A DNA stretch of 64,000 nt from Octopus vulgaris (Eukaryota), in the NCBI GenBank assembly GCA_951406725.2, contig OX597827.1:50778001-50842000 (forward strand), read 5' to 3'. Both the position numbers and the translations under genes were made by a program. The notes beneath the pieces were generated by a model that saw nothing but the letters and a program-made list of their open reading frames with translations, was not told the origin of the DNA and searched no databases. Shown here piece by piece: positions 4,102 through 57,409 of this stretch; the stretch's first letter is position 1, and every line of letters begins with the position of its first letter.

Positions 4102-4273
4102 AGGCGCAGGAGTGGCTGTGTGGTAAGTAGCTTGCTTATGAACCACATAGTTCTGGGTTCAGTCCCACTGCGTGGCACCTTGGGCAAGTGTCTTCTACTA
4201 TAGTCTCGGGCCGACCAAAGCCTTGTGAGTGGATTTGGTAGGCGGAAACTGAAAGAAGCCCGTCGTATATATG

Positions 4274-4355
<82 letters not shown>

Positions 4356-4579
4356 CGTGTATGTTTGTGTGTCTGTGTTTGTCCCCCTAGCATTGCTTGA
4401 CAACTCATGTTGGTGTGTTTATGTCCTCGTCACTTAGCGGTTCGGCAAAAGGGACCGATAGAATAAGTACTGGGCTTACAAAGAATAAGTCCCGGGGTCG
4501 AGTTGCTCGATCAAAGGCGGTGCTCCAGCATGGCCGCAGTCAAATGACTGAAACAAGTAAAAGAGAGTAAAAGAGTAAA
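4102..4579 (+). mobile_element. SINE family A, full length (tRNA-like head, internal (TA)n(TG)n, LINE-like tail)
   Basis: aggcgcaggagtggctgtgtggtaag...gggttcagtccc head; tail ggcggtgctccagcatggccgcagtcaaatgactgaaac + (gtaaaaga)n. Many copies in the window. Confidence 0.92.

Positions 4580-8055: not shown

Positions 8056-8137
<82 letters not shown>
7835..8137 (-). mobile_element. SINE family A, 3' half (5' half at 11669-11828; split by the PLE)
   Basis: Reverse-complement tail and body of family A, ending in the internal (CA)n(TA)n. Confidence 0.9.
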
Positions 8138-8170
8138 TAAGAAAGTTTGTTTGGTAAAGCACGTGGGTGA

Positions 8171-8390
8171 ATATATAAGAAAATAGTAAAGTGTGAAAAA
8201 ACGACAGAAGGCTTAAATGTTAAAAAATATATATATTTGTGTCAAAATGTCTGGAGAATATTGGAAAAATTTTTTTTCCTTTCCTTAAAATGACATAATT
8301 TTAAAATTTTTAAAGAAATTACCGGTTTCGCGTGTAGCTTTTCAAATTTCTTGTGACGTTATGTTTATATTGTATGGAATTATCGTTGTT
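8171..8390 (-). repeat. 5' inverted pseudo-LTR
   Basis: Reverse complement of 11403-11621 with only one substitution and one homopolymer indel seen. Confidence 0.95.
8313..8352 (-). ncRNA. Hammerhead ribozyme (U3-A8 variant), antisense copy
   Basis: Exact reverse complement of 11441-11480. Confidence 0.78.
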
Positions 8391-8391
8391 C

Positions 8392-9045
8392 TTCTTCCAA
8401 AAATATAGTGAAACCTTCAAAAATGAATTGGGTACAAATAATCCCTTTCTTAAGAAAATTACAATAAATAAAAAAGAAAAACCTAACAACCCACGAACAA
8501 CCCCCAACTATCCTCCATACACTAAAAACAGAAATCACCCACAACCAACCTATACAAACCACGCTAGACCTAACAGGTAACTAGCTGAAAGAGGACGCGT
8601 CTATGAAAGAAATTACACCAAAAACAGAACAAACCAACAACATCCTAATACCAGACCCTACCACCATACAGCACAATACGACACTAGGATAAGAAATACA
8701 CCACACACAAATCACTACTACCCCATGAACCAAAACTACTGGTCCCCACTAAACACAAGACAAACGCAAAGAAACACTATGTCAAGCAACATCCCACATA
8801 CAAGAAGTTCGAAACAAAAATATTCCCCATACAGAAATTTTACACACACCACAAGCATTAACAACCATAGATTCCCACACACACACAACGATCGGAGGCA
8901 ACAATACCAACACTCACCCGACCAAATACCACACAACCTCACAGACAACTCATACAAACAAAATTACACCCAACATTTTTTAGCCAGGGACCAGGGACAC
9001 CAGGACACAGGCTGGAACCTAGTAATAAGGAAAAACCGAAGATAA
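8392..9045 (+). pseudogene. PLE upstream ORF (ORF1-like; N/Q/T/H/P/Y/R-rich, 5'-truncated)
   Basis: Track ORFs 8353-8580 and 8725-9045 are in the same frame, separated only by one TAA (8578-8580). Overlaps the pol frame. Confidence 0.6.
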
Positions 9046-11305
9046 TCAATCTTTCAACCAAACCTCTTTCTAACATAAAAATTGACATCCTCGCAAAAGG
9101 GCTCAAATTTACACCAACTCCACGCAGAGCAAACCTAAATGAACTCAAGGATAATATAACAGAATTTTGCAGAAAATTAAGACTAGCAGAAGCATCAAAC
9201 AGTTTCAATACTGAAGATGAATCACTTGTCAAGAACAAAAGTGAACACATCCCACACAGAGGAAGAAATAAAGATCTTGACGAATTCTGTAACCACATTG
9301 AGAACTTCCCCTACCATACTATACATAAACAGAAAGCTAACCCAAATTTTAACAATACATAATGGAAAGAACTGATAGAACTCCAAAATGATGAAGATAT
9401 AACCATTAAGGAAGCGGACAAGGGAAATGCAGTTGTAATAATGGATACATCATACTACAGAAATCTTGTAATTTCCTTGCTTGATGAAGACCTACATTAT
9501 GAAAAAATTACCAACTACACCCCACAAAAAATAATGAAAACTTTATCTTCACTAATTAAAACCCATGAAAAGGAACTGACAACCAAAGAGATTGATTTCC
9601 TAACAAACTTTAAATGCAAACCTAGCCTTTTCTATGGTCTGCCAAAAATTCATAAAAGTCAAATTATAAATGAAACCATTAAAAAATCACCAAAGACATA
9701 CATACACACACCTAATCCGGGGACCTAAAACTACGACCCATTGTAGCTGGCCCAACCTGTGAAACACACAGACTAAGTCTACTTATGGACATCCTCTTGA
9801 AACCCTTCCTTAAACATATCGATAGCCATATCAGAGATGACTTAGATATGTTAAACCACCTTCCAAAAAAACCAAGGAAGAAACAATCCTGGTTTCATTT
9901 GATGTAGTCAACTTGTATTCCAGTATACCTCATAATTATGGACTGGAGGCAATACAATTCTGGTTAGACCAATTTCCGGAAGAAATACCAAAAAGGATCA
10001 GTAAGGAATTCATTACTAAATCAATTGAATTCATCCTACACAATAACCACTTCATGTTTGACAATACATTTTACCGTCAAAAATCCAGAATTGCTATGGG
10101 TACAAGGGCAGCACCAGTCATTGCGAACTTAACAATGGGATACATGGAAATAATCATTTACCAGGAATCTCTATCAATCTTTGGAAACTCCCTCTCTCAA
10201 TACATAAAAGAGAATTGGAAACGATTCCTAGACGATTGTTTCATTCTCTGGAATGAAAACATAGATAAACTCCTAAAATTTAAAAACCTATTGAACAGCA
10301 TAAACCCAAATATACAGTTCACAATGGAATACAACCAAAAGGAGCTCCCGTTCTTGGATATACTAATTAAAAAAATTAACCTTAAAATAGAAACAGACAT
10401 TTTTTACAAAGCCTCAGACGCCAAACAATACCTTCTTTTTAATTCATGCCACCCAAGACACACTAAAACAAACATCCCCTTCAACCTTGCAAGAAGGATA
10501 TGCACAATAGTGTCAGAACAAAATACCAGGAACTTTAGACTGCAAGAACTCAAAAACACCCTAATTGACAGACATTACCCAGCTCAACTCATAGAGGATG
10601 GGATCAGACGTGCAACAGAAATCAACATAGAAACTTTAAGAAAAGTTCAACACAACAACACACCTTCCCCGAAAATACTACCTTACATATCTACATACAA
10701 CCCCAGAAACAAAGAAGCCTTCACCATCATCACCCAGAATTTACCAATACTTCATAAAAACCCAAAATTAAAGGAAATTCTAAACATACACCAAATCATT
10801 AAAAGCTACAAACAGTCTAAATCACTTAAAAAGATTCTCACAAAGGCAAAATTGTCTTCTAAAATTACGGATGCAAAAGTAAAAAAAATGTGGTAGATCG
10901 AACTGTGCAACATGTCCTAACCTATTGGAAGGATCAGAATTCTTCTTTAAAGAGGGACAGAAATTTAAGATCAAATCTAACTTTACTTGTGCCTCTGAAA
11001 ACATAATTTATGTTATTAAATGCTCGGGCTGCCACCAAGACTACGTGGGTTCCACGGGACTATCACTCAGGCGCAGATGCACACTGCATCGACAACAGAT
11101 TGCATTCCCAGAATATAGAATGATACCTTTTAGTGAGCACATTGAGAAATGCGCAAAGCAACTACTGCCACAATTTTTAATCTTCCCATTTTACCAATGT
11201 GCTTTCGGATCATCAACACAAATGAGACTGAACAAGGAAACATTCTTCATTGAAAAGTACAAACCCAGACTCAACCATCCGAACATACTGACACAGAGAA
11301 ATTAA
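8982..11305 (+). pseudogene. PLE reverse transcriptase + GIY-YIG endonuclease polyprotein (disrupted)
   Basis: Motifs KIINLS..LS...ILAKGLKFTPTP, IKEADKGNAVVIMD, YGLPKIHK, RPIVAG, VSFDVVNLYSSIP, IAMGTRAAP, WKRFLDDCF, LPFLD, SCHP, CGRSNCATC, FTCASENIIYVIKCSGCHQDYVGSTG..LRRR. Lesions: TAA at 9360 and frameshifts near 9720, 9870 and 10885. Confidence 0.93.
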
Positions 11306-11402
11306 CAAGGAAATGGGAAAAAAATTTTTAAGCGATTATCTCCCCTACACCGGAAAAAATCACTCACTACCTCCCCTTATTTAGAAATCTCCTGGAAATA
11401 AA

Positions 11403-11612
11403 AACAACGATAATTCCATGCAATATAAACATAACGTCACAAGAAATTTGAAAAGCTACACGCGAAACCGGTAATTTCTTTAAAAATTTTAAAATTATGT
11501 CATTTTAAGGAAAGGAAAAAAATTTTTCCAATATTCTCCAGACATTTTGACACAAATATATATATTTTTTAACATTTAAGCCTTCTGTCGTTTTTTCACA
11601 CTTTACTATTTT

Positions 11613-11621
<9 letters not shown>
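11403..11621 (+). repeat. 3' pseudo-LTR of the PLE
   Basis: Follows the GIY-YIG stop and 3' UTR; inverted copy at 8171-8390. Confidence 0.95.
11441..11480 (+). ncRNA. Minimal type-I hammerhead ribozyme (U3-A8 variant)
   Basis: AAGAAAT TTGAAAA GC-tacac-GC GAAACCGGTA ATTTCTT. Perfect 7-bp stem I, 2-bp stem II, palindromic ACCGGT stem III, GUA triplet (predicted cut after 11473). Confidence 0.8.
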
Positions 11622-12037
<416 letters not shown>

Positions 12038-18465: not shown

Positions 18466-18875
18466 TTTACTCTTTACTCTTTTACTTGTTCAGTCATTTG
18501 ACTGCGGCCATGCAGGAGCACCGCCTTTAGCCGAGCAAGTCGACCCCAGAACTTATTCTTTGTAAGCCTAGTACTTATTCTATCGGTCTCTTTTGCCGAA
18601 CCGCTAAGTTACGGGGACGTAAACACACCAGCATCGGTTGTCAAGCGATGCTAGGAGGACAAACACAGACACACAAACATACACAGACACATATATATAT
18701 ATACATATATACGACGGGCTTCTTTCAGTTTCCGTCTACCAAATCCACTCACGAGGCTTTGGTCGGCCCGAGGCTATAGTAGAAGACACTTGCCCAAGGT
18801 GCTACGCAGTGAGACTGAACCCGGAACCATGTGGTTGGTAAGCAAGCTACTTACCACACAGCCACTCCTACGCCT
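18466..18875 (-). mobile_element. SINE family A, full length
   Basis: Reverse complement of family A; imperfect TSD taaaat(g/a)tttt. Confidence 0.92.
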
Positions 18876-21188
18876 AAAATATTTTCAAAATCCCATGTTC
18901 AACATGACATGCAGGAAAACGCTTATAGACGAAAATATAAAGCAATTAATTTCTTTGCGTGATATATATATATTTCTGAAAGGATATTTATTCTGAAAAG
19001 ATGGTTTAAGAATTATCAAAATAGTTTAGTTTTTCAGCTTATGCTATGCCTAAGAATAGTTGGAGTCCTTCGAACTGATAGCGCTATACACGAGATAAAT
19101 AGGTGTTCTTATCCCCACCAGGTGGCCATAACATAAACACCTTGTAATATTACTGCTGCGCCTAAAGCTAACGTATTTCTTATCACTTGAAGTATGCCTG
19201 GAGTAACGCACTTGGAAACGAAAGAATTTCATTTAAAATTTATTTCAAAACTTTTTTCAAGCACGTACTTATCAACTATACTCCCTCTTACACACATATA
19301 TGTAAGCACACACACAAACACACACGACACACATACATACAAACATACACATACAAACATGTTTGTGTGCGTATGTGTGTGTTTGTGTACAGAGAGAGAA
19401 AGAGAGAAAGAAAGAGAGGGAGTGGAGTAGAGAGATCCATTCTTTCAAACATGTTATATTGAATGTGTTCGAGTTTAATATGTTCAAGATGTTTTGTATG
19501 TTCATAGTTTTCGTGCTCAGTCAAACATAATACCATTTCTAAGTCCTTCGACATTCTAAGACCTAGTCTGTCGTATTTCTGCTTGAAATGATGATGGTTG
19601 AGCGTTCTTGCTGCACTTTATAGAGACAACTAGCGATCGTGAAGAAGAGTGTTATAACTGATATGATCTTTATCGCCTGAAGCATATTATAAAAGTAATC
19701 AAGATTTAACGGTTAAACAATTTTAAAATACATCTATGGCAATTTTATCATTTACATTATTTTCGTAATTCCCTGAAGCTTACTTTAAAATGCAACCATA
19801 ACGAGTCACTTTATCGTTTCATTCGTACACAAAAAATTTGTGATTAAAAATTTCGTTCTGAGTCAGAGAAGGAAAACTTAAAGCTAGTCACAATTGCTGG
19901 TATCTCTGAAAAACAAAGAAGAGGCAGTTTTATGAAATTTATGAATAATTTCTTCATTGGATTAATTTGGTTAGGAAAACAACAGTCTGGCCTTTGCTTG
20001 AAGAAAAGGAACAATTACTGATATACTGTTTCAGTCTAATTTTGTCCTCATCTTCGCAGAATAGTCCTAGCTTACCTCCAGATCAATTTTGAACATGTTC
20101 ATAAATGACAGAGAGCTTAATGTGTTCAGCATATTATTTATAGCCGATGAGTTTAAATTGAGACCTAAAACATTGAATCTTACCTCTAAACAGATGAAAT
20201 TATCTTTTTCTCCAAGTATGTTAATCCAATAATTTAATCCCAATTTATTAAAATTATCTCCCCTTGTTCGGAGTTACTAACAACTGCTGCTAGGTTTTTA
20301 TTTAATTTCTCTGACTTAGAGGGAAAGTTATATCATAATATTTATATTATAATACGAGGCATGTTCCTCTGCCCATCTATCGCTATTTTCAGATAATTTA
20401 TTTGGAGAAACGAACGAGAAAATTGCAGCAAAGCTGCGAGATAGTGGTGTCTGACGTAACATGAAGGCCATCATATAACTTGTTTGACATTGCGTTTTTA
20501 TTCTTCTCTTCCGTTTTATTTTAACATGCACATTTCGTTAGTATTCTTCTCTTCCGTTTTACAAATTCATTGTGCACATGCACATTGCGCTTTCATACCT
20601 CTCTTTTCGGTTCCTACTCAGAATTGTTTACATATCACAACCATCTCACGAACCTGCGGTCATGGGGGAGCGCTTTGCACTCTGATGGTTGTGAAGAAAA
20701 GACTGATGAATATTTCATTCTCAATTACAATAGACTGTGTGATCAAAGGACAAATGACGTAGAGAAAAAGAGACTTTAAAAATAGATTTGTTAAAACCTT
20801 TAGCCAGCAAAACAGTTAATTTTACTGTAAACCAATTTCAATTAACACTTGAGACTACTTATTTTTAAGGTGAATAAGTTATTTTACAAAAACCTTCATT
20901 TGGAAAAAGAATTAATTCTGATGTTTGTAAGGTAAACATATTATTTTCCACTTAAATATTTGTTGATATACAACAATTCTGGAATTTAAAAAGATAATGA
21001 AATCATGAAACAGTCTTTATTTTTACTAAAAATAATTCATTGAAAATTATCATTTACCACTTTTTTATGTTTCAGGATGTTTCGGCTAAGCTAGTTCACT
21101 GAAACATTATGTTAATATTATGGACAAAATTATTATTTCCTTTGTAATGCATCATCTGCCAGAAATATTACAAATATACACAGTCACA

Positions 21189-29574: not shown

Positions 29575-29997
29575 TACTCTTTTACTCTCTCTCTCTCTCT
29601 CTCTTTTACTTGTTTCAGTCATCTGACTGCGGCCATGCTGGAGCACCGCCTTTAGTCGAACAAATCGACCCCGGGACTTATTCTTTGTAAGCCCAGTACT
29701 TATTCTATCGCTCTCTTTTGCCGAACCGCTAAGTGACGGCGACGTAAACACACCAGCATCGGTTTGCAAGCGATGCTAGGGGGACAAACATAGACACACA
29801 AACATACACAGACACATATATATATATATACATATATACGACGGGCTTCTTTCAGTTTCCGTCTACCAAATCCGCTCACAAGGCTTTGGTCGGCCCGAGG
29901 CTATAGTAGAAGACACCAGCCCAAGATGCCACGCAGTGGGACTGAACCCGGAACCATGTGGTTGGTAAGCAAGCTATTTACCACACAGCCACTCCTG
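29575..29997 (-). mobile_element. SINE family A, near full length
   Basis: Reverse complement of family A. Confidence 0.92.
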
Positions 29998-30503
29998 TGT
30001 ATATGATATGTGTATGATATGGCTATATATGTGTATGTGTCAGTAGCGGCTCGTGTATAGGCACAGCGGAACTACAGCACCCCCCCATTTCCGCTCGATA
30101 TTATCGATAACATTCAATATAATGAGTCCTTTTGTCTTTAATTCTTTCTTTATACTTGTACATTATATAATCCTTAAGCTTAATGTCAATAGCTATCCCT
30201 TAGTTTATGAAAAAAATACAAAAATTCTTATATAGAACTGTGCGCTTCACAGTTCCAGCGATGAGGTGTTTGGCTGTTGTGCGCATGCTCACATATCCGA
30301 GATAGGAAGCTTCACGCTAGGGAGAGACAGCACTGTCGTTCATGCAGTGACAACTCCTGTGTGCCGCTGAAAGGTAGTGTTTCTTTTGACTCCGTGTGTG
30401 TTGTGCTTAAAAACATATTTATATTGTTTAATGTGATAAAGTGTAGAATTAGATTATTATCTTACTTCTAGCTTCAGTATTGCTGCCTGGATTTGAAATA
30501 TCC

Positions 30504-30920: not shown

Positions 30921-32839
30921 GTTTATATGTATGTGCAGATAGACAGATAGTGATAGAAAGGCAAACAGATTGATAGATGGATATGCAATTGTTACCGAGA
31001 TGGGGAGATATATTTTATGCTTGTATATTTAACTAACGTAGCGTTGTAATTTCTCTTTGAAGTGATACTAATAAAGATGTTTCAGTCATCGTGAATTCAT
31101 CCTTTCTTATTCCTTGCTGAACACTCCTCAGTGACACTTGTTAAAAACAAAGTTTTTATTCTCAATTCGAAAGAGCTTATCATTCGATGTAACCATGACA
31201 CCTTTAGTATAGATTCTTCATAAAATGTTCCTACACCTTCCAAACGATATAACTGCCACTTCTAAAAAGATCAAAGTCGAATCGAAGACACTTAAAATTA
31301 CTTATGAATAAGTTTTGCAATAAATGTGCTTCAGCTACTTTCTTGCATGAATAAAAATTCCACACGTTATTTCCCTATTTTTATACTTTTGCACTAAAAT
31401 ACAAATGTTTCAGAATAACAACTCTTCAATGCGAATTTGATATTGTTCTGCTTTTCAAGTAACACAACGTATGTAGTCTCTTAAAATGCTTGTAGGCTGT
31501 TACGTCAGTAACAACAGTCTTAGTAACAGCAACCAAGCGTGGAGATTCCTCGCAGGTTTTATACGGTAAAACATTTGTAAGTACTGATTCGTATGATTTG
31601 GAAAGTTGTATACGTATGTATTTGACAGTTGAGGTCATATTGATAGCAGAAATAAATTCAAGCAGAAATGGTGCGCAATGTCAAGAAAAGATTTGTAAAA
31701 TGTTTTTTACTGTCGTCTGCTTTGTGCTGGAACCGTAGTTATTGGTTTTCTTTTTATATGTACGGGTGGGTATATTACATTTCATTGCTGTTTTACTACT
31801 TTTTACTGCAACATAGATACATAATTACACAGCGATTTTTTTTTCTCTGTTTCAATCTTATATGATATATTAATTGTCACGAGATGATAATAAAGATATA
31901 TCTTTCGGTAGGCAACAGCTAGGCAATTCACAATACTTTTTCAAAGGATAACAGTGGTTGAAGAAGAAACGTAAACTAACATAAAGCCATCAATAGCAAT
32001 ATAAATAGTGGCATCAATAATTTTAGCTTCACAACCGAGCCAATTCATAAGAATGAAAAGTTGAATACGATGGCAAGATGGATGTAATATTCAAGAAATA
32101 GATCCATAAGTTAGAAAAAAAGAAATACTAATATACGTGCCATTGGTCAAACACACACACACACACGTACAAATACACGCTCGCGCCACTACACCACCAA
32201 TACCAATATCGTTTTCAGCACTAGCATCCAAAACAGTTATCACATGAGTCAATAAGTGGTTGTTCGATCTGCTAAAAATAACAGTCAGATCTCTTTCAAA
32301 TTACACCCACTGCCTTAAAATAAGGACACGTTGGTTCTGGGTGTATTGTGCATGGGAAAGAATCGTATGGTCATGGATGGAATGCCTGCTTGTTCAAAGT
32401 TGAGCCGAGGTTAAATAACACCAGCAAATCAAATACTGGAAAGCTATTAAGTTGGCAAAATTTGTCTTTTTTTTTTGTTTTTTATTTTTTACTATTCTTA
32501 TATTTTCATTATCAGAGACCACAATATAGCACGAGTCAAATTTATAAATAAATGTAAATATAGTTAATAGAATTGTGAACAAAGTTGTAGACTCAAGTCC
32601 AGTGATATGAATTTCAGTTATAGTGTTACCATTCCTACTGTTCTTGCGGAGTCATTAGTTATGGTGTGGTTCATGTCTTCTTACGTGTATTACCTTCAAA
32701 AACATTCTTTAAAACTGTAGCTACTAAATGCAATATGAACTGATTGAAAGAGCTAGGAATCTCAGTTATGTCATAATTAAATCGTCCGCACTTATAGGCG
32801 AAATGGCTATGCTATGTCAGAACAGTATTTCCCAACTTT

Positions 32840-33072
32840 AAGGCGGTCAGCTGGCAGAAACGTTAGCACGCCGGGCGAAATGCTTAGCGGTATTTCGTCT
32901 GCTGTTACGTTCTGAGTTCAAATTCCGCCGAGGTCGACTTTGCCTTTCATCCTTTCGGGGTCGATAACTTAAGTACCAGTTAGGCACTGGGGTCAATGTA
33001 ATCGACTTAATACCTATGTCTGTCCTTGTTTGTCCCCTCTGTGTTTGGCCCGTTGTGGGTAGTAAAGAAATA
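32840..33072 (+). mobile_element. SINE family B, full length, 16-bp TSD
   Basis: TSD agtatttcccaacttt at 32824-32839 and 33073-33088. Confidence 0.93.
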
Positions 33073-34222
33073 AGTATTTCCCAACTTTTTCACTACTAAG
33101 TAGCTAATTTATGTAAATGAATTTTCTCTAGACCCCCAAGTTTTTGAAATGTCTGTCAGCTCAACAAATTTTAAACTGAGTTCACGGACCTCCAATACTT
33201 TCCTTGCGATTGGTTGGTAATAGTAGTCTCTCGCTAGTTTAGACAGCAGTTCATTGACTGTTATTTCAACAAACCAAAATATGTTTAAATATGTTTATAC
33301 ATGGCGCAGATTAGGAGTTCGATCTTTCTCTACCACACTTTTGGGCTACAATAGCCTAAGGTTGCAATGCTTTGTATTACATTTGGTTAACGGAGAACTT
33401 TGAGGAGGTGCTCCTTATATGCACATACATTTAACTTTAGCATACTACAAATAAATCAGAAAATATAACGGCTATAGGTTTGAAGATAAAATGTGTTTTC
33501 TTTTTTCAAAAGCAAAATGAAAGAACTAGAAGGAACCAATGTTAGATAGAGGCAGTTAGAAATAAATATCAATGAAAGGAGGTTAGTTGTACGCAAAGTG
33601 GCAGGTAAAGTGGGCTGGTGAGACAGGGCTAGGCATTAAGACAGATTGAAATAACTAAACTGGCAACTAACAGGAAGAGTTGGAAAAAAAGATCTTGATG
33701 TCAGTTGGAGTAATTCTTAGAGAGGAAATAAAGAAAGAGAGAATGAAAGAAGGTGTGAATGTAAATAAATGTACACTCAAGAGACTTAGAAAGAAAAGGT
33801 GAGAAGGATAAAATAAATGAAATGTTTTTGTGATGTTTTGGTTTTTCAAAGCTTTGGTAAACAAATAAATAAATAAATAAATAAGTGTATTCAAATTATC
33901 ATTAATGTCACCAATACCACAGTCCTACGGCTATCAGAGAAATTCAGTACTACTTTTCGAAATGGAAAAGTGAGAAGGTTTTTCTTTTATTTTCAAGATG
34001 CTGGTGAACTTTCTTGATGCATTTTCAATTAATGTTTTACCTTAAAGCTAAAGAGGAAATGGTACAGCAAAAATACAATTCAATGAAATTATAGTTTGAG
34101 AAGATATTTTACTGGTGAATGGCTGCGGAGTTGTTTGAAAACGTTAAATATTTAGCTAAGTTCATTACAAAAAAAAATACCTTGAATAAGCGTGTAAGTA
34201 TATATGCATGCGTTTGTAGACG

Positions 34223-54430: not shown

Positions 54431-54489
54431 ATTACGTGCGTGCGTACGTACGAATATATGTACTTATTGATATTATACGTTCCAACGTA

Positions 54490-54716
54490 GAAGACGGCGA
54501 GCTGGCAGAAACGTTAGCACGCCGGGCGAAATGCGTAGCCGTATTTCGTCTGCAGTTACGTTCTGAGTTCAAATTCCGCCGTGGTCGACTTTGCCTTTCA
54601 TCCTTTCGGAGTCGATAAATTAAGTACCAGTTACGCACTGGAGTCGATGTAATCGACTTAATCCGTTTGTCTGTCCTTATTTGTCCCCTCTGTGTTTAGC
54701 CCTTAGTAAAGAAATA
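54490..54716 (+). mobile_element. SINE family B, full length, 17-bp TSD
   Basis: TSD gatattatacgttccaa at 54469-54485 and 54717-54733. Confidence 0.93.
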
Positions 54717-55220
54717 GATATTATACGTTCCAAGGTAGTCTGCTGTAAAACAAATTATCGTTTGTTTGTTTTTTTTTGTTGTTGTTTTTCCTAATGATTT
54801 TATCCATTAGACGGCGATCATACTGGAGCACTAGATAAGTTAGTTATAAGGGGTTTCCTCACTTAAATTCATCATTAGCAACCTCATATTCACCATCGTC
54901 AGTTCCGGTTGCTTTGTAGTCCTCCTTGATTTCGTTATCGTCAGTTTAACTATCGACACTGTAAGATGGAGCGAATTATTTTATGAACCGACATTGATAT
55001 CCGTGAACACTGTCGCAGATTTGTAGACTAATATAAGCATTAAAAAGTTCTGTAAAGGATTTTCAGCATGTCACATATACGTAAATATATGTATTAATCA
55101 ACATCGAATTGACTTTGATTACCGAAGATGATTCGGGAATGATGAATAAAAAAGCTGTTCACTGTAGTTTGTCATAGAGAAAACAAATTCTTGTTAAGAA
55201 CAAAAAATTGTTAAAATACC

Positions 55221-55452
55221 TATTTCTTTACTACCCACAAGGGGCTAAACACAGAGAGGACAAACAAGGACAGACAAATGGATTAAGTCGATTACATCGA
55301 CCCCAGTGCGTAACTGGTACTTATTTAATCGACCCCAAAAGGATGAAAGGCAAAGTCGACCTCGGCGGAATTTGAACTCAGACCGTAACGGCAGACGAAA
55401 TACGGCTACGCATTTCGCCCGGCGTACTAACGTTTCTGCCAGCTCGCCGCCC
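55221..55452 (-). mobile_element. SINE family B, full length, 12-bp TSD
   Basis: TSD tgttaaaatacc at 55209-55220 and 55454-55465. Confidence 0.93.
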
Positions 55453-56289: not shown

Positions 56290-56425
56290 CTGCTTTCCAA
56301 CCACCTGGTTCCAGATTCAGTCCTAGTGCGTGATACCTTGGGCAAGTGTCTTCTACTATAGCTTTGGGCTGACCAAAGCCTTGTGAGTGGATTTGGCAGA
56401 CAGGAACTGAAAGAAGCCCGTCGTA
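56290..56425 (+). mobile_element. SINE family A partial head, preceded by a small mariner-like relic
   Basis: Family A match; upstream ~56228-56290 translates LTEEKLMRHSSTVLHHLRKTG (mariner second HTH-like, weak). Confidence 0.7.
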
Positions 56426-57409
56426 TGTATGTGTGTGTGTGTGTGTGTGCGTGTGTGTGTGTGTGTGCGTGTGTGTGTGTGTGTGTGCGTGTGCGCACTG
56501 GTTGAGGTGTTTTCAAAGTACCCGCAAACTCATGTTTCACTCATATGATTGCGGTGACCCAGTAGCTATAATAGAATGTTCTTGTCGACAGAGTCGCGTA
56601 GTAGAATCGAACCTGAAAACATTTGGTTATGAAATGAATTTGTCAACCACCCAGCCACGCCTACGCACAGTTTGAATCTCGTTTGACAGAGAACGATTAC
56701 TCGTTTTGTTGTGAGACGTAAATAAGATTTCCGTAAATTGACCAAAATCAATAGACAACGGCATGTGTTCTTATCATGGTTTCTGCCGCTCGAACAGAAT
56801 ATCCGTAATTTGCCAATGTCTTTGCAAACAGTACCATTTTTTTTTATCTTGCAAGAAAAAAAAATACATCAGACTACCAGGAAATTTGTGTTATAAGAAA
56901 GAGATTCTCTCATGATTAATGTTCAATGAACGCTTAGAAAACAAAATTCTCAATTTCATGCACACCACCTTATCAGTAATACAAACTGAAACTAATCTAA
57001 TCTTATATTTATTGTGATTATTCTTTTTCATCATTTAATTGTCTCCAAATATATATTTGACGCGAAACACAAAGAACCACATAATATTGAATAAATAACT
57101 TGATAATATCTGGTAACTGAAGTGAAAAACAGTCATAATCGTAGTCCATATTCTGGCCAACTTTCAGCAGTGTTCATCTACGAAATGGGCGTATATTCTG
57201 TATAGTGGATATATACAAGGGCAAGTTAACCGACACCATTTTCAAACAGGCTCTCAAGTCATGTGATGAGCAGTGGATTGGTGTCATCAATATATTATGG
57301 CTGTTACTCCTTAGACTCACGTTGCTATGGATTGAGCAGATCTATGATCATACACCTTCCAGCCATGACTAGCCTGTCTTTTTCGGGTATCATTGTATCT
57401 GATTCTATA

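What the first reader, a model, noticed from the sequence alone, without database searches (positions are those of the whole stretch)
11441..11480. Penelope pseudo-LTR carries a minimal hammerhead ribozyme with a non-canonical UUGAAAA (U3-A8) core
Seen: AAGAAAT-TTGAAAA-GCtacacGC-GAAACCGGTA-ATTTCTT, with a perfect 7-bp stem I closing the motif, present identically in both pseudo-LTRs. Established: PLE pseudo-LTRs carry minimal type-I hammerheads with palindromic stem III thought to cleave as dimers, and the active hammerhead core needs a 3-8 Watson-Crick pair (normally C3-G8). Inference: the simultaneous C3U + G8A change is compensatory, so this is likely a selected, functional variant that CUGANGA-based searches would miss.
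Basis: partly seen in the sequence, partly recalled or inferred. Interest (0 to 1): 0.8.

Follow-up and report, generated by a model that had tools for sequence, protein, structure and literature searches.

The report
Known-type Penelope hammerhead, U3-A8 core
A young Penelope-like jumping gene with hundreds of copies carries a tiny hammerhead-shaped RNA motif whose swapped U3-A8 core pair is inherited across its whole lineage; it likely cuts its own RNA only weakly and in pairs, and this core variant was already published, so it is an ordinary new example.

Summary
The motif is real: exact at 11441-11480, with the predicted cut after 11473. Its second copy (8313-8352) is inverted, so this locus cannot form a tandem dimer. 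It lies in the 3' pseudo-LTR of a 5'-truncated, frameshifted RT + GIY-YIG Penelope-like element. U3-A8 is fixed in the subfamily (625 matches, none with another base at 3 or 8) and is the commonest state in the lineage (70 of 78 intact cores in a sample chosen by the endonuclease). Across eight subfamily representatives, 16 of 17 core and helix III positions are invariant, and a separate tandem repeat family in this genome holds both C3-G8 and U3-A8 forms. Against a strictly required ribozyme: 7 of 78 have U3·G8, 30 of 78 lack the first helix I pair, helix II is only 2 bp, and U3 can pair with A17. Cleavage is untested. U3-A8 hammerheads are in print (Perreault 2011; in Penelope pseudo-LTRs, Cervera and de la Peña 2014), and this scan has noted them before in other genomes. 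New member of a known kind; low interest.

The parts
11441..11480 (+). Minimal type-I hammerhead motif, U3-A8 core, 2-bp helix II, palindromic helix III, A17; predicted cut between 11473 and 11474
   Evidence: conservation across subfamilies
8313..8352 (-). Identical second copy of the motif, antisense to the element
8171..8396 (-). Inverted, 5'-truncated pseudo-LTR copy at the 5' end of the insertion (matches 11397-11621)
   Evidence: 222 of 225 aligned bases identical, 1 gap
8136..8170 (-). About 35-nt 'tail' present on the inverted copy only; other family copies carry it after the 3' pseudo-LTR
   Evidence: sequence compared by eye with the copy ends; one-sided tails described in PMC8557442
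8397..9045 (+). 3' remnant of an upstream ORF (about 450 aa in full-length copies, no Pfam family); the window copy is 5'-truncated
9012..11305 (+). RT + linker + GIY-YIG ORF, broken by frame changes and stops in this copy
   Evidence: tblastn of P0002 and P0001 in several frames; Pfam RVT_1 E 5.6e-6 and GIY-YIG E 0.0027, both under the curated cut-offs; 230 RT relatives at E<=1e-20
10889..10915 (+). C-x4-C-x2-C linker motif upstream of the endonuclease (Neptune/Nematis type)
   Evidence: translation; motif definition in PMC8557442
11306..11620 (+). 3' pseudo-LTR that holds the motif
11330..11379 (+). Second conserved pseudo-LTR block (up to 32 of 40 positions invariant across 8 subfamily representatives); role not tested
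8098..8135 (.). (TA)n run flanking the 5' end (likely target site)
11621..11657 (.). (TA)n run flanking the 3' end (likely target site)

Best explanation
The motif is a minimal type-I hammerhead in the pseudo-LTR of a Penelope-like retrotransposon, with a U3-A8 core pair inherited across its lineage, and it likely cleaves element RNA slowly after 11473, likely only when two copies pair through the palindromic helix III. Shown: location, anatomy, copy numbers, lineage-wide conservation of the core and palindrome, and C3-G8/U3-A8 covariation in another family of this genome. Inferred: in partial-tandem copies two sense motifs about 4.0 kb apart would form a double hammerhead and could release a unit-length RNA; at this locus, with one sense motif and a broken ORF, it would need a partner in trans and is likely inert. 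Activity is probably low (2-bp helix II, competing U3-A17 pair) and may need the element's protein.
For: Two 40-mers co-fold as the double-hammerhead scaffold with a 6-bp intermolecular helix III. Of 96 endonuclease-selected contexts, 78 keep an intact core and no multi-copy subfamily lacks it. 16 of 17 core, 10.1/11.1 and helix III positions are invariant in 8 subfamily representatives against 131 of 276 flank positions (Fisher P 1.9e-4), while loop II and position 17 vary. Compensatory changes: helix II second pair C-G to U-A, outer helix I pair A-U to G-C. The tandem family has 21 C3-G8, 9 U3-A8 and 1 C3-A8 among 31 contexts. Partial-tandem copies carry sense motifs 3,997 and 3,996 nt apart. 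Print: U3-A8 cores occur in nature and are stated to be active in vitro (PMC3088659); PLE minimal hammerheads cleave weakly as dimers (PMC4209133); a PLE hammerhead cleaved only with the element's protein (PMC11167929).
Against: No cleavage data. U3 pairs A17 with probability 0.73 in the monomer, and the trapped dimer is 1.4 kcal/mol more stable than the cleavage-compatible one, like the inactive C3-G17 state discussed in PMC3884650. Sister subfamilies that amplified anyway lack the 1.1 nucleotide (720 matches; 30 of 78), carry U3·G8 (7 of 78) or have a 1-bp helix II. Another pseudo-LTR block is as conserved. The conservation count is partly circular (groups were defined with a core pattern) and its positions are not independent. 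In the Anolis PLE, hammerhead cleavage was not needed for insertion in vitro.
Confidence: 0.6

Rival explanations
1. The motif is a true hammerhead homologue but no longer cleaves to any useful extent in this lineage; it is kept as a structural or protein-binding element of the pseudo-LTR RNA (palindromic dimerisation, RNP assembly) or decays slowly.
For: Subfamilies with an unpaired 2.1 base (720 matches), with U3·G8 or with a 1-bp helix II still made many copies. Insertions next to C3 impaired cleavage in PMC3088659. U3-A17 trap. Cleavage was dispensable for insertion in vitro in PMC11167929.
Against: Unpaired catalytic positions (U4, G5, A6, A9, G12-A14) stay invariant across subfamilies whose pseudo-LTRs are 64-76% identical with gaps counted, which a palindrome-only role would not require. 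Position 17 varies only among A, C and U in the 78 intact cores, although the pattern allowed G.
Confidence: 0.33
2. It is a chance hammerhead look-alike in AT-rich repeat DNA: an 8-bp inverted repeat with a short palindrome.
For: Monomer folding is no better than shuffles; no Rfam hit.
Against: It sits in the pseudo-LTR downstream of the endonuclease, where PLE hammerheads lie. 2,271 and 2,345 pattern matches against 11 and 0 for the reversed patterns. The same core and palindrome recur, with different helices I and II, in a second PLE family and a tandem family.
Confidence: 0.04
3. It is an efficient monomeric ribozyme that cuts every transcript of the element.
For: A 7-bp helix I and a complete core.
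Against: Monomeric helix III would be 2 bp closed by a 2-nt loop and is not formed in the predicted fold; helix II is 2 bp; I saw no loop I-loop II partner; a published PLE minimal monomer showed no cleavage.
Confidence: 0.03

Closest known systems
Minimal hammerheads of metazoan Penelope-like elements, U3-A8 variant of Schistosoma mansoni Cercyon (Cervera and de la Peña 2014, PMC4209133)
   Same: Type-I topology in the pseudo-LTR; U3-A8 in place of C3-G8; G10.1-C11.1; palindromic helix III; motif pairs on opposite strands close together; missed by a canonical descriptor.
   Different: Helix II is 2 bp (7-8 bp reported for S. mansoni; 3 bp or more in the rows of the supplementary alignment I saw); no extra base between 9 and 10.1; helix I is 7 bp; helix III has a 4-nt palindromic centre; position 17 is A and can pair with U3.
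Kuruma shrimp (Marsupenaeus japonicus) PLE hammerhead in the same paper's alignment
   Same: No extra base after A9, 4-nt palindromic centre of helix III, A17; its element is called Neptune-like in PMC8557442.
   Different: Canonical C3-G8 core and a 4-bp helix II.
Natural U3-A8 core variants (Perreault et al. 2011, PMC3088659)
   Same: Covariation of the 3-8 pair, stated to be active in vitro.
   Different: That survey is of canonical hammerheads, many with tertiary contacts; this one is minimal and predicted to need a dimer.
Non-LTR retrozymes (PMC7229834; bioRxiv 10.64898/2026.07.22.740005)
   Same: Type-I hammerheads in animal repeats linked to PLE pseudo-LTRs; a 353-360-bp tandem family of this kind in G000 shares the helix III palindrome and has both core pairs.
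   Different: The window's motif is in an autonomous-type element, not a short tandem repeat.

Membership tests
Penelope-like element, C-terminal EN+ (Neptune/Nematis type) | [quoted passage not shown] | tested here: met
   (Pfam scores for the broken window copy are under the cut-offs; full-length relatives carry RVT_1, many also GIY-YIG)
Penelope-like element, C-terminal EN+ (Neptune/Nematis type) | CX2-5CxxC linker before the endonuclease | tested here: met
   10889-10915; definition
Penelope-like element, C-terminal EN+ (Neptune/Nematis type) | Pseudo-LTRs, partial tandems, inverted 5' copy, one-sided 30-40-bp tail | tested here: met
   description
Penelope-like element, C-terminal EN+ (Neptune/Nematis type) | RT phylogeny placing it in Neptune rather than Nematis | not tested
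   no reference set of named PLE clades was aligned
Penelope-like element, C-terminal EN+ (Neptune/Nematis type) | Single ORF | tested here: inconclusive
   two full-length copies show an extra upstream 495-codon open frame; both copies have broken RT frames, so whether it is read apart or joined was not settled
Minimal type-I hammerhead of PLEs | Core positions 3-9, G12-A14, A15.1-U16.1, H17 with a Watson-Crick 3-8 pair | tested here: met
   U3-A8, A17
Minimal type-I hammerhead of PLEs | Palindromic helix III able to pair between two copies | tested here: met
   (self-complementary 6-mer, -8.3 kcal/mol; co-fold)
Minimal type-I hammerhead of PLEs | G10.1-C11.1 pair closing helix II | tested here: met
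   invariant in 8 of 8 representatives; helix II only 2 bp
Minimal type-I hammerhead of PLEs | Location in the pseudo-LTR | tested here: met
Minimal type-I hammerhead of PLEs | Self-cleavage after N17 as a dimer | not testable with these tools
   only contigs were available; needs an assay
Canonical type-I hammerhead (Rfam hammerhead families) | Match to a covariance model; 4-bp helix II with loop I-loop II contacts | tested here: not met
   no hit; helix II 2 bp; a canonical-core tandem copy was also missed

The most novel reading that the evidence does not exclude
In this genome U3-A8 is the ruling core among hammerheads with this helix III type (about 5,200 pattern matches in three searches whose listed rows are 79-100% U3-A8, against 215 for the canonical-core search), and one lineage forms a natural mutant series, all amplified: helix II of 1-2 bp, U3·G8, loss of the first helix I pair, and A17 with that pair present again in the window's subfamily, which nests among subfamilies that lack it. 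If these ultra-short forms cleave only with the element's protein, they would be among the smallest natural hammerheads and a ready test of whether Penelope elements need their ribozyme.
Probability: 0.3. Interest if true: 0.45.

Novelty: new member of a known kind. Interest (0 to 1): 0.17.

Why it matters
The U3-A8 swap itself is known, so the finding adds a host lineage and a very short helix II, not a new class. Its use is practical: canonical-core searches would miss most hammerheads of this type in this genome, and the related subfamilies offer natural variants at positions 8, 17, 1.1 and helix II for asking whether Penelope hammerheads must cleave for the element to spread, which PMC8557442 calls unclear and PMC11167929 found unnecessary in vitro.

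Tried and rejected
Rfam scans: no hammerhead family, also not for a canonical-core control, so uninformative. Monomer folding z-scores: nothing beyond chance. Conservation among the best 30 copies: copies are 98-100% identical and were picked by similarity, so this shows youth, not selection; the zero counts likewise reflect youth. Sequencing runs: no RNA holder listed on record; only contigs of runs guessed to be RNA could be laid (8 of 24 listed runs), they show no pile of ends, one contig bridges the predicted cut, and contigs cannot show RNA ends, so none of this bears on cleavage. The idea that the two window copies form a cis tandem dimer was rejected (second copy antisense). The idea that U3-A8 arose in this young subfamily was rejected (present in subfamilies with about 68-98% endonuclease identity). 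The upstream ORF gave no Pfam family and only sub-0.9 Atlas leads. Lünse et al. 2017 (dimeric PLE hammerheads) is not held; I recall it only and rest no claim on it. A refined subfamily tree with a clade test was not obtained, so the order of events at positions 17 and 1.1 rests on the rough tree. No earlier notes exist for this genome.

Full report
Observation. It occurs twice in the window, at 11441-11480 (+) and 8313-8352 (-); none of 100 shuffles gives a match. Read as a type-I hammerhead it has a 7-bp helix I, positions 3-9 at 11448-11454 with U3 and A8, a helix II of only 2 bp with a 5-nt loop, G12-A15.1, a self-complementary 6-mer (11467-11472) and A17 at 11473, so the predicted cut is 11473/11474. 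The second copy lies in an inverted 5' copy of the pseudo-LTR (8171-8396, 222 of 225 aligned bases identical), so a sense transcript of this locus carries one motif.

The element. [quoted passage not shown] The RT piece has 230 relatives at E<=1e-20 among 3,502 candidates; where an animal is named among the 120 listed it is a bivalve mollusc. The host is an animal with a 2.8-Gb genome. The family is young: the 30 best loci are 98-100% identical to the window copy. Two partial-tandem copies carry sense motifs 3,997 and 3,996 nt apart, which gives the unit length and shows that the window copy lacks its 5' part and its upstream sense motif. By eye these were the only two same-strand close pairs among the first 100 rows; the other close pairs are inverted like the window's.

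Is U3-A8 the consensus? A pattern with positions 3, 7, 8 and 17 free has 625 matches (control 0); none has another base at 8 or at 3. Because the copies are young this shows consensus, not selection. For a sample that does not depend on the motif I searched the endonuclease's last codons (1,540 matches), fetched 90 loci covering most of the first 100 listed and read downstream. Of 96 distinct contexts (a few may be one place seen in overlapping loci), 78 have an intact core; of the other 18, by my reading 11 carry point changes seen once within their subfamily, 2 are rearranged or half deleted, and 5 have no motif in the 460 nt read (insertion, deletion, duplication, locus edge). Among the 78: 70 U3-A8, 7 U3·G8, 1 G3-A8, no C3; position 17 is A in 40, C in 36, U in 2; 30 lack a partner for base 2.1. 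U3-A8 is therefore older than the window's subfamily and occurs in relatives with about 68-98% endonuclease identity.

Is it selected? In the window plus one representative of each of the 7 other multi-copy types (pseudo-LTR identity 64-76% with gaps counted), 16 of 17 core, 10.1/11.1 and helix III positions are invariant, against 131 of 276 flanking positions (Fisher P 1.9e-4). The groups were defined with a core pattern and positions are linked, so the P value is optimistic; 9 single-copy types were left out. Variation falls in loop II, position 17, position 1.1 and, in two types, position 8. The second helix II pair changes from C-G to U-A, and the outer helix I pair from A-U to G-C, in distant subfamilies. 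A second block, 11330-11379, is at least as conserved (32 of 40 against 27 of 40 for the whole motif), so the motif is not the only constrained part.

Covariation in the genome. Looser patterns found 2,271 matches with a pyrimidine at 17 (reversed control 11) and 2,345 with a purine at 17 not followed by A (control 0). Counted by eye, the first 100 rows are 79 U3-A8, 13 C3-G8, 6 U3·G8 and 2 C3-A8; those are 94 U3-A8 and 6 U3·G8. One search is dominated by a second PLE family with a 4-bp helix II, a 3-bp helix I, U3-A8 and A17; 5 of 7 loci tested have an endonuclease end 680-770 nt upstream (40 of 120 proteins used as queries). A tandem family with 353-360-bp units, of the retrozyme kind (PMC7229834, passages; bioRxiv 10.64898/2026.07.22.740005, first of five parts), has 21 C3-G8, 9 U3-A8 and 1 C3-A8 among 31 contexts, the two main types being about 84-91% identical over 200-350 nt in the two queries printed. 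That is direct support for 'compensatory', but in another family. A canonical-core pattern gave 215 matches (control 49). These searches cover only motifs with a 4-nt helix III centre, so they do not give the ratio for all hammerheads of the genome.

How it likely works. Two 40-mers co-fold into the double-hammerhead scaffold: exchanged helices I, both helices II and a 6-bp helix III between molecules. In that fold U3 pairs with A17 (-15.5 kcal/mol against -14.1 for the cleavage-compatible form; probability 0.73 in the monomer). This parallels the inactive C3-G17 state proposed for G17 hammerheads (PMC3884650, abstract and two passages); the parallel is my inference. U3 with A17 occurs in the window's subfamily, in a distant sister type and in the second PLE family, so it is tolerated. 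I conclude that the motif likely cleaves slowly and only as a dimer, in tandem transcripts or in trans, perhaps helped by the element's protein: PLE minimal hammerheads cleaved weakly as dimers and not as a monomer (PMC4209133), and the Anolis PLE hammerhead cleaved only with its protein and was not needed for insertion in vitro (PMC11167929, passages). The window copy itself is likely inert.

Results against this reading. Sister subfamilies that lack the 1.1 nucleotide have 720 matches, more than the window's type (625) or the older types with C or U at 17 and the pair intact (582). Insertions beside C3 impaired cleavage in PMC3088659 (passages). Two subfamilies carry U3·G8, and one distant subfamily has a 1-bp helix II. 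A tree of 32 upstream segments (motif excluded) puts the window's subfamily inside a supported clade (100/99) whose other members lack 1.1; some rows include inversion junctions and no clade test was run, so regain of the pair, as against recombination between subfamilies, is not settled. No cleavage evidence could be had from public runs.

Comparison with what is known. Cervera and de la Peña 2014 (PMC4209133; I read parts 1-2 of 4 of the text and part 2 of 3 of supplementary file 2; file 1 could not be searched and may list further species) report 'U3-A8 instead of C3-G8' in Cercyon pseudo-LTRs of S. mansoni, about 1,300 hits, missed by their first descriptor; their alignment shows two such rows, one U3·G8 row and a shrimp motif with the same 4-nt palindromic centre and A17. 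Perreault et al. 2011 report natural U3-A8 covariation and state that such cores are active in vitro; I did not see the primary kinetic paper they cite. What I did not find in print is a PLE hammerhead with a 2-bp helix II or a description for this host group; this rests on searches only, and Lünse et al. 2017 was not available. Six earlier notes of this scan describe U3-A8-type motifs beside PLEs in other genomes; they are leads, and the published precedent was checked here.

Verdict. Observation confirmed with one correction (inverted second copy). Interpretation partly supported: a real, conserved PLE hammerhead motif with a covarying core pair, but known, untested for cleavage, and with signs of relaxed constraint. 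New member of a known kind; interest 0.17.

Noticed in passing
G000:C1:20002278-20004542 (L045-L051), L061-L062, L065-L067, L103-L110: A 353-360-bp tandem repeat family of the non-LTR retrozyme kind, with a type-I hammerhead (6-bp helix I, 4-bp helix II) in each unit; one subfamily has C3-G8 and another U3-A8, about 89% identical.
   Followed up: partly
L123-L142 (most listed rows,345 matches): A second abundant Penelope-like family whose U3-A8 hammerhead has a 4-bp helix II, a 3-bp helix I and A17, about 680-770 nt downstream of the endonuclease.
   Followed up: partly
L244:2844-4328 (-), L243:2866-4350 (-); 3' remnant at window 8397-9045: Full-length copies have an upstream 495-codon open frame (about 450 aa from the first Met) that overlaps the start of the RT frame; no Pfam family, low-complexity C-terminal half, Atlas leads all under 0.9.
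   Followed up: partly
window 11330-11379: A pseudo-LTR block as conserved as the hammerhead across subfamilies; in most of them it holds an ETS-like site (motif recalled, from no call), possibly part of the internal promoter.
   Followed up: no
L031, L037, L083-L094 and others (720 matches): Large sister subfamilies lack nucleotide 1.1, leaving base 2.1 unpaired next to the core; one distant copy (L101) lacks both 2.1 and 1.1.
   Followed up: partly
L036, L040, L058, L095, L096, L099, L117: A distant subfamily whose helix II is reduced to the G10.1-C11.1 pair closing a 6-nt loop, with the rest of the core intact.
   Followed up: partly
L105:2143-2237: A near-perfect hairpin of about 95 nt downstream of two tandem hammerhead units (Rfam microRNA models match below their gathering scores); probably an inversion junction.
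   Followed up: no
window 4133-4575, 18489-18882, 29591-30009, 32829-33090, 54474-55451, 56291-56493: Dispersed 200-250-bp repeat families (60-93% identical, both orientations) next to microsatellites; probably SINE-like elements.
   Followed up: no
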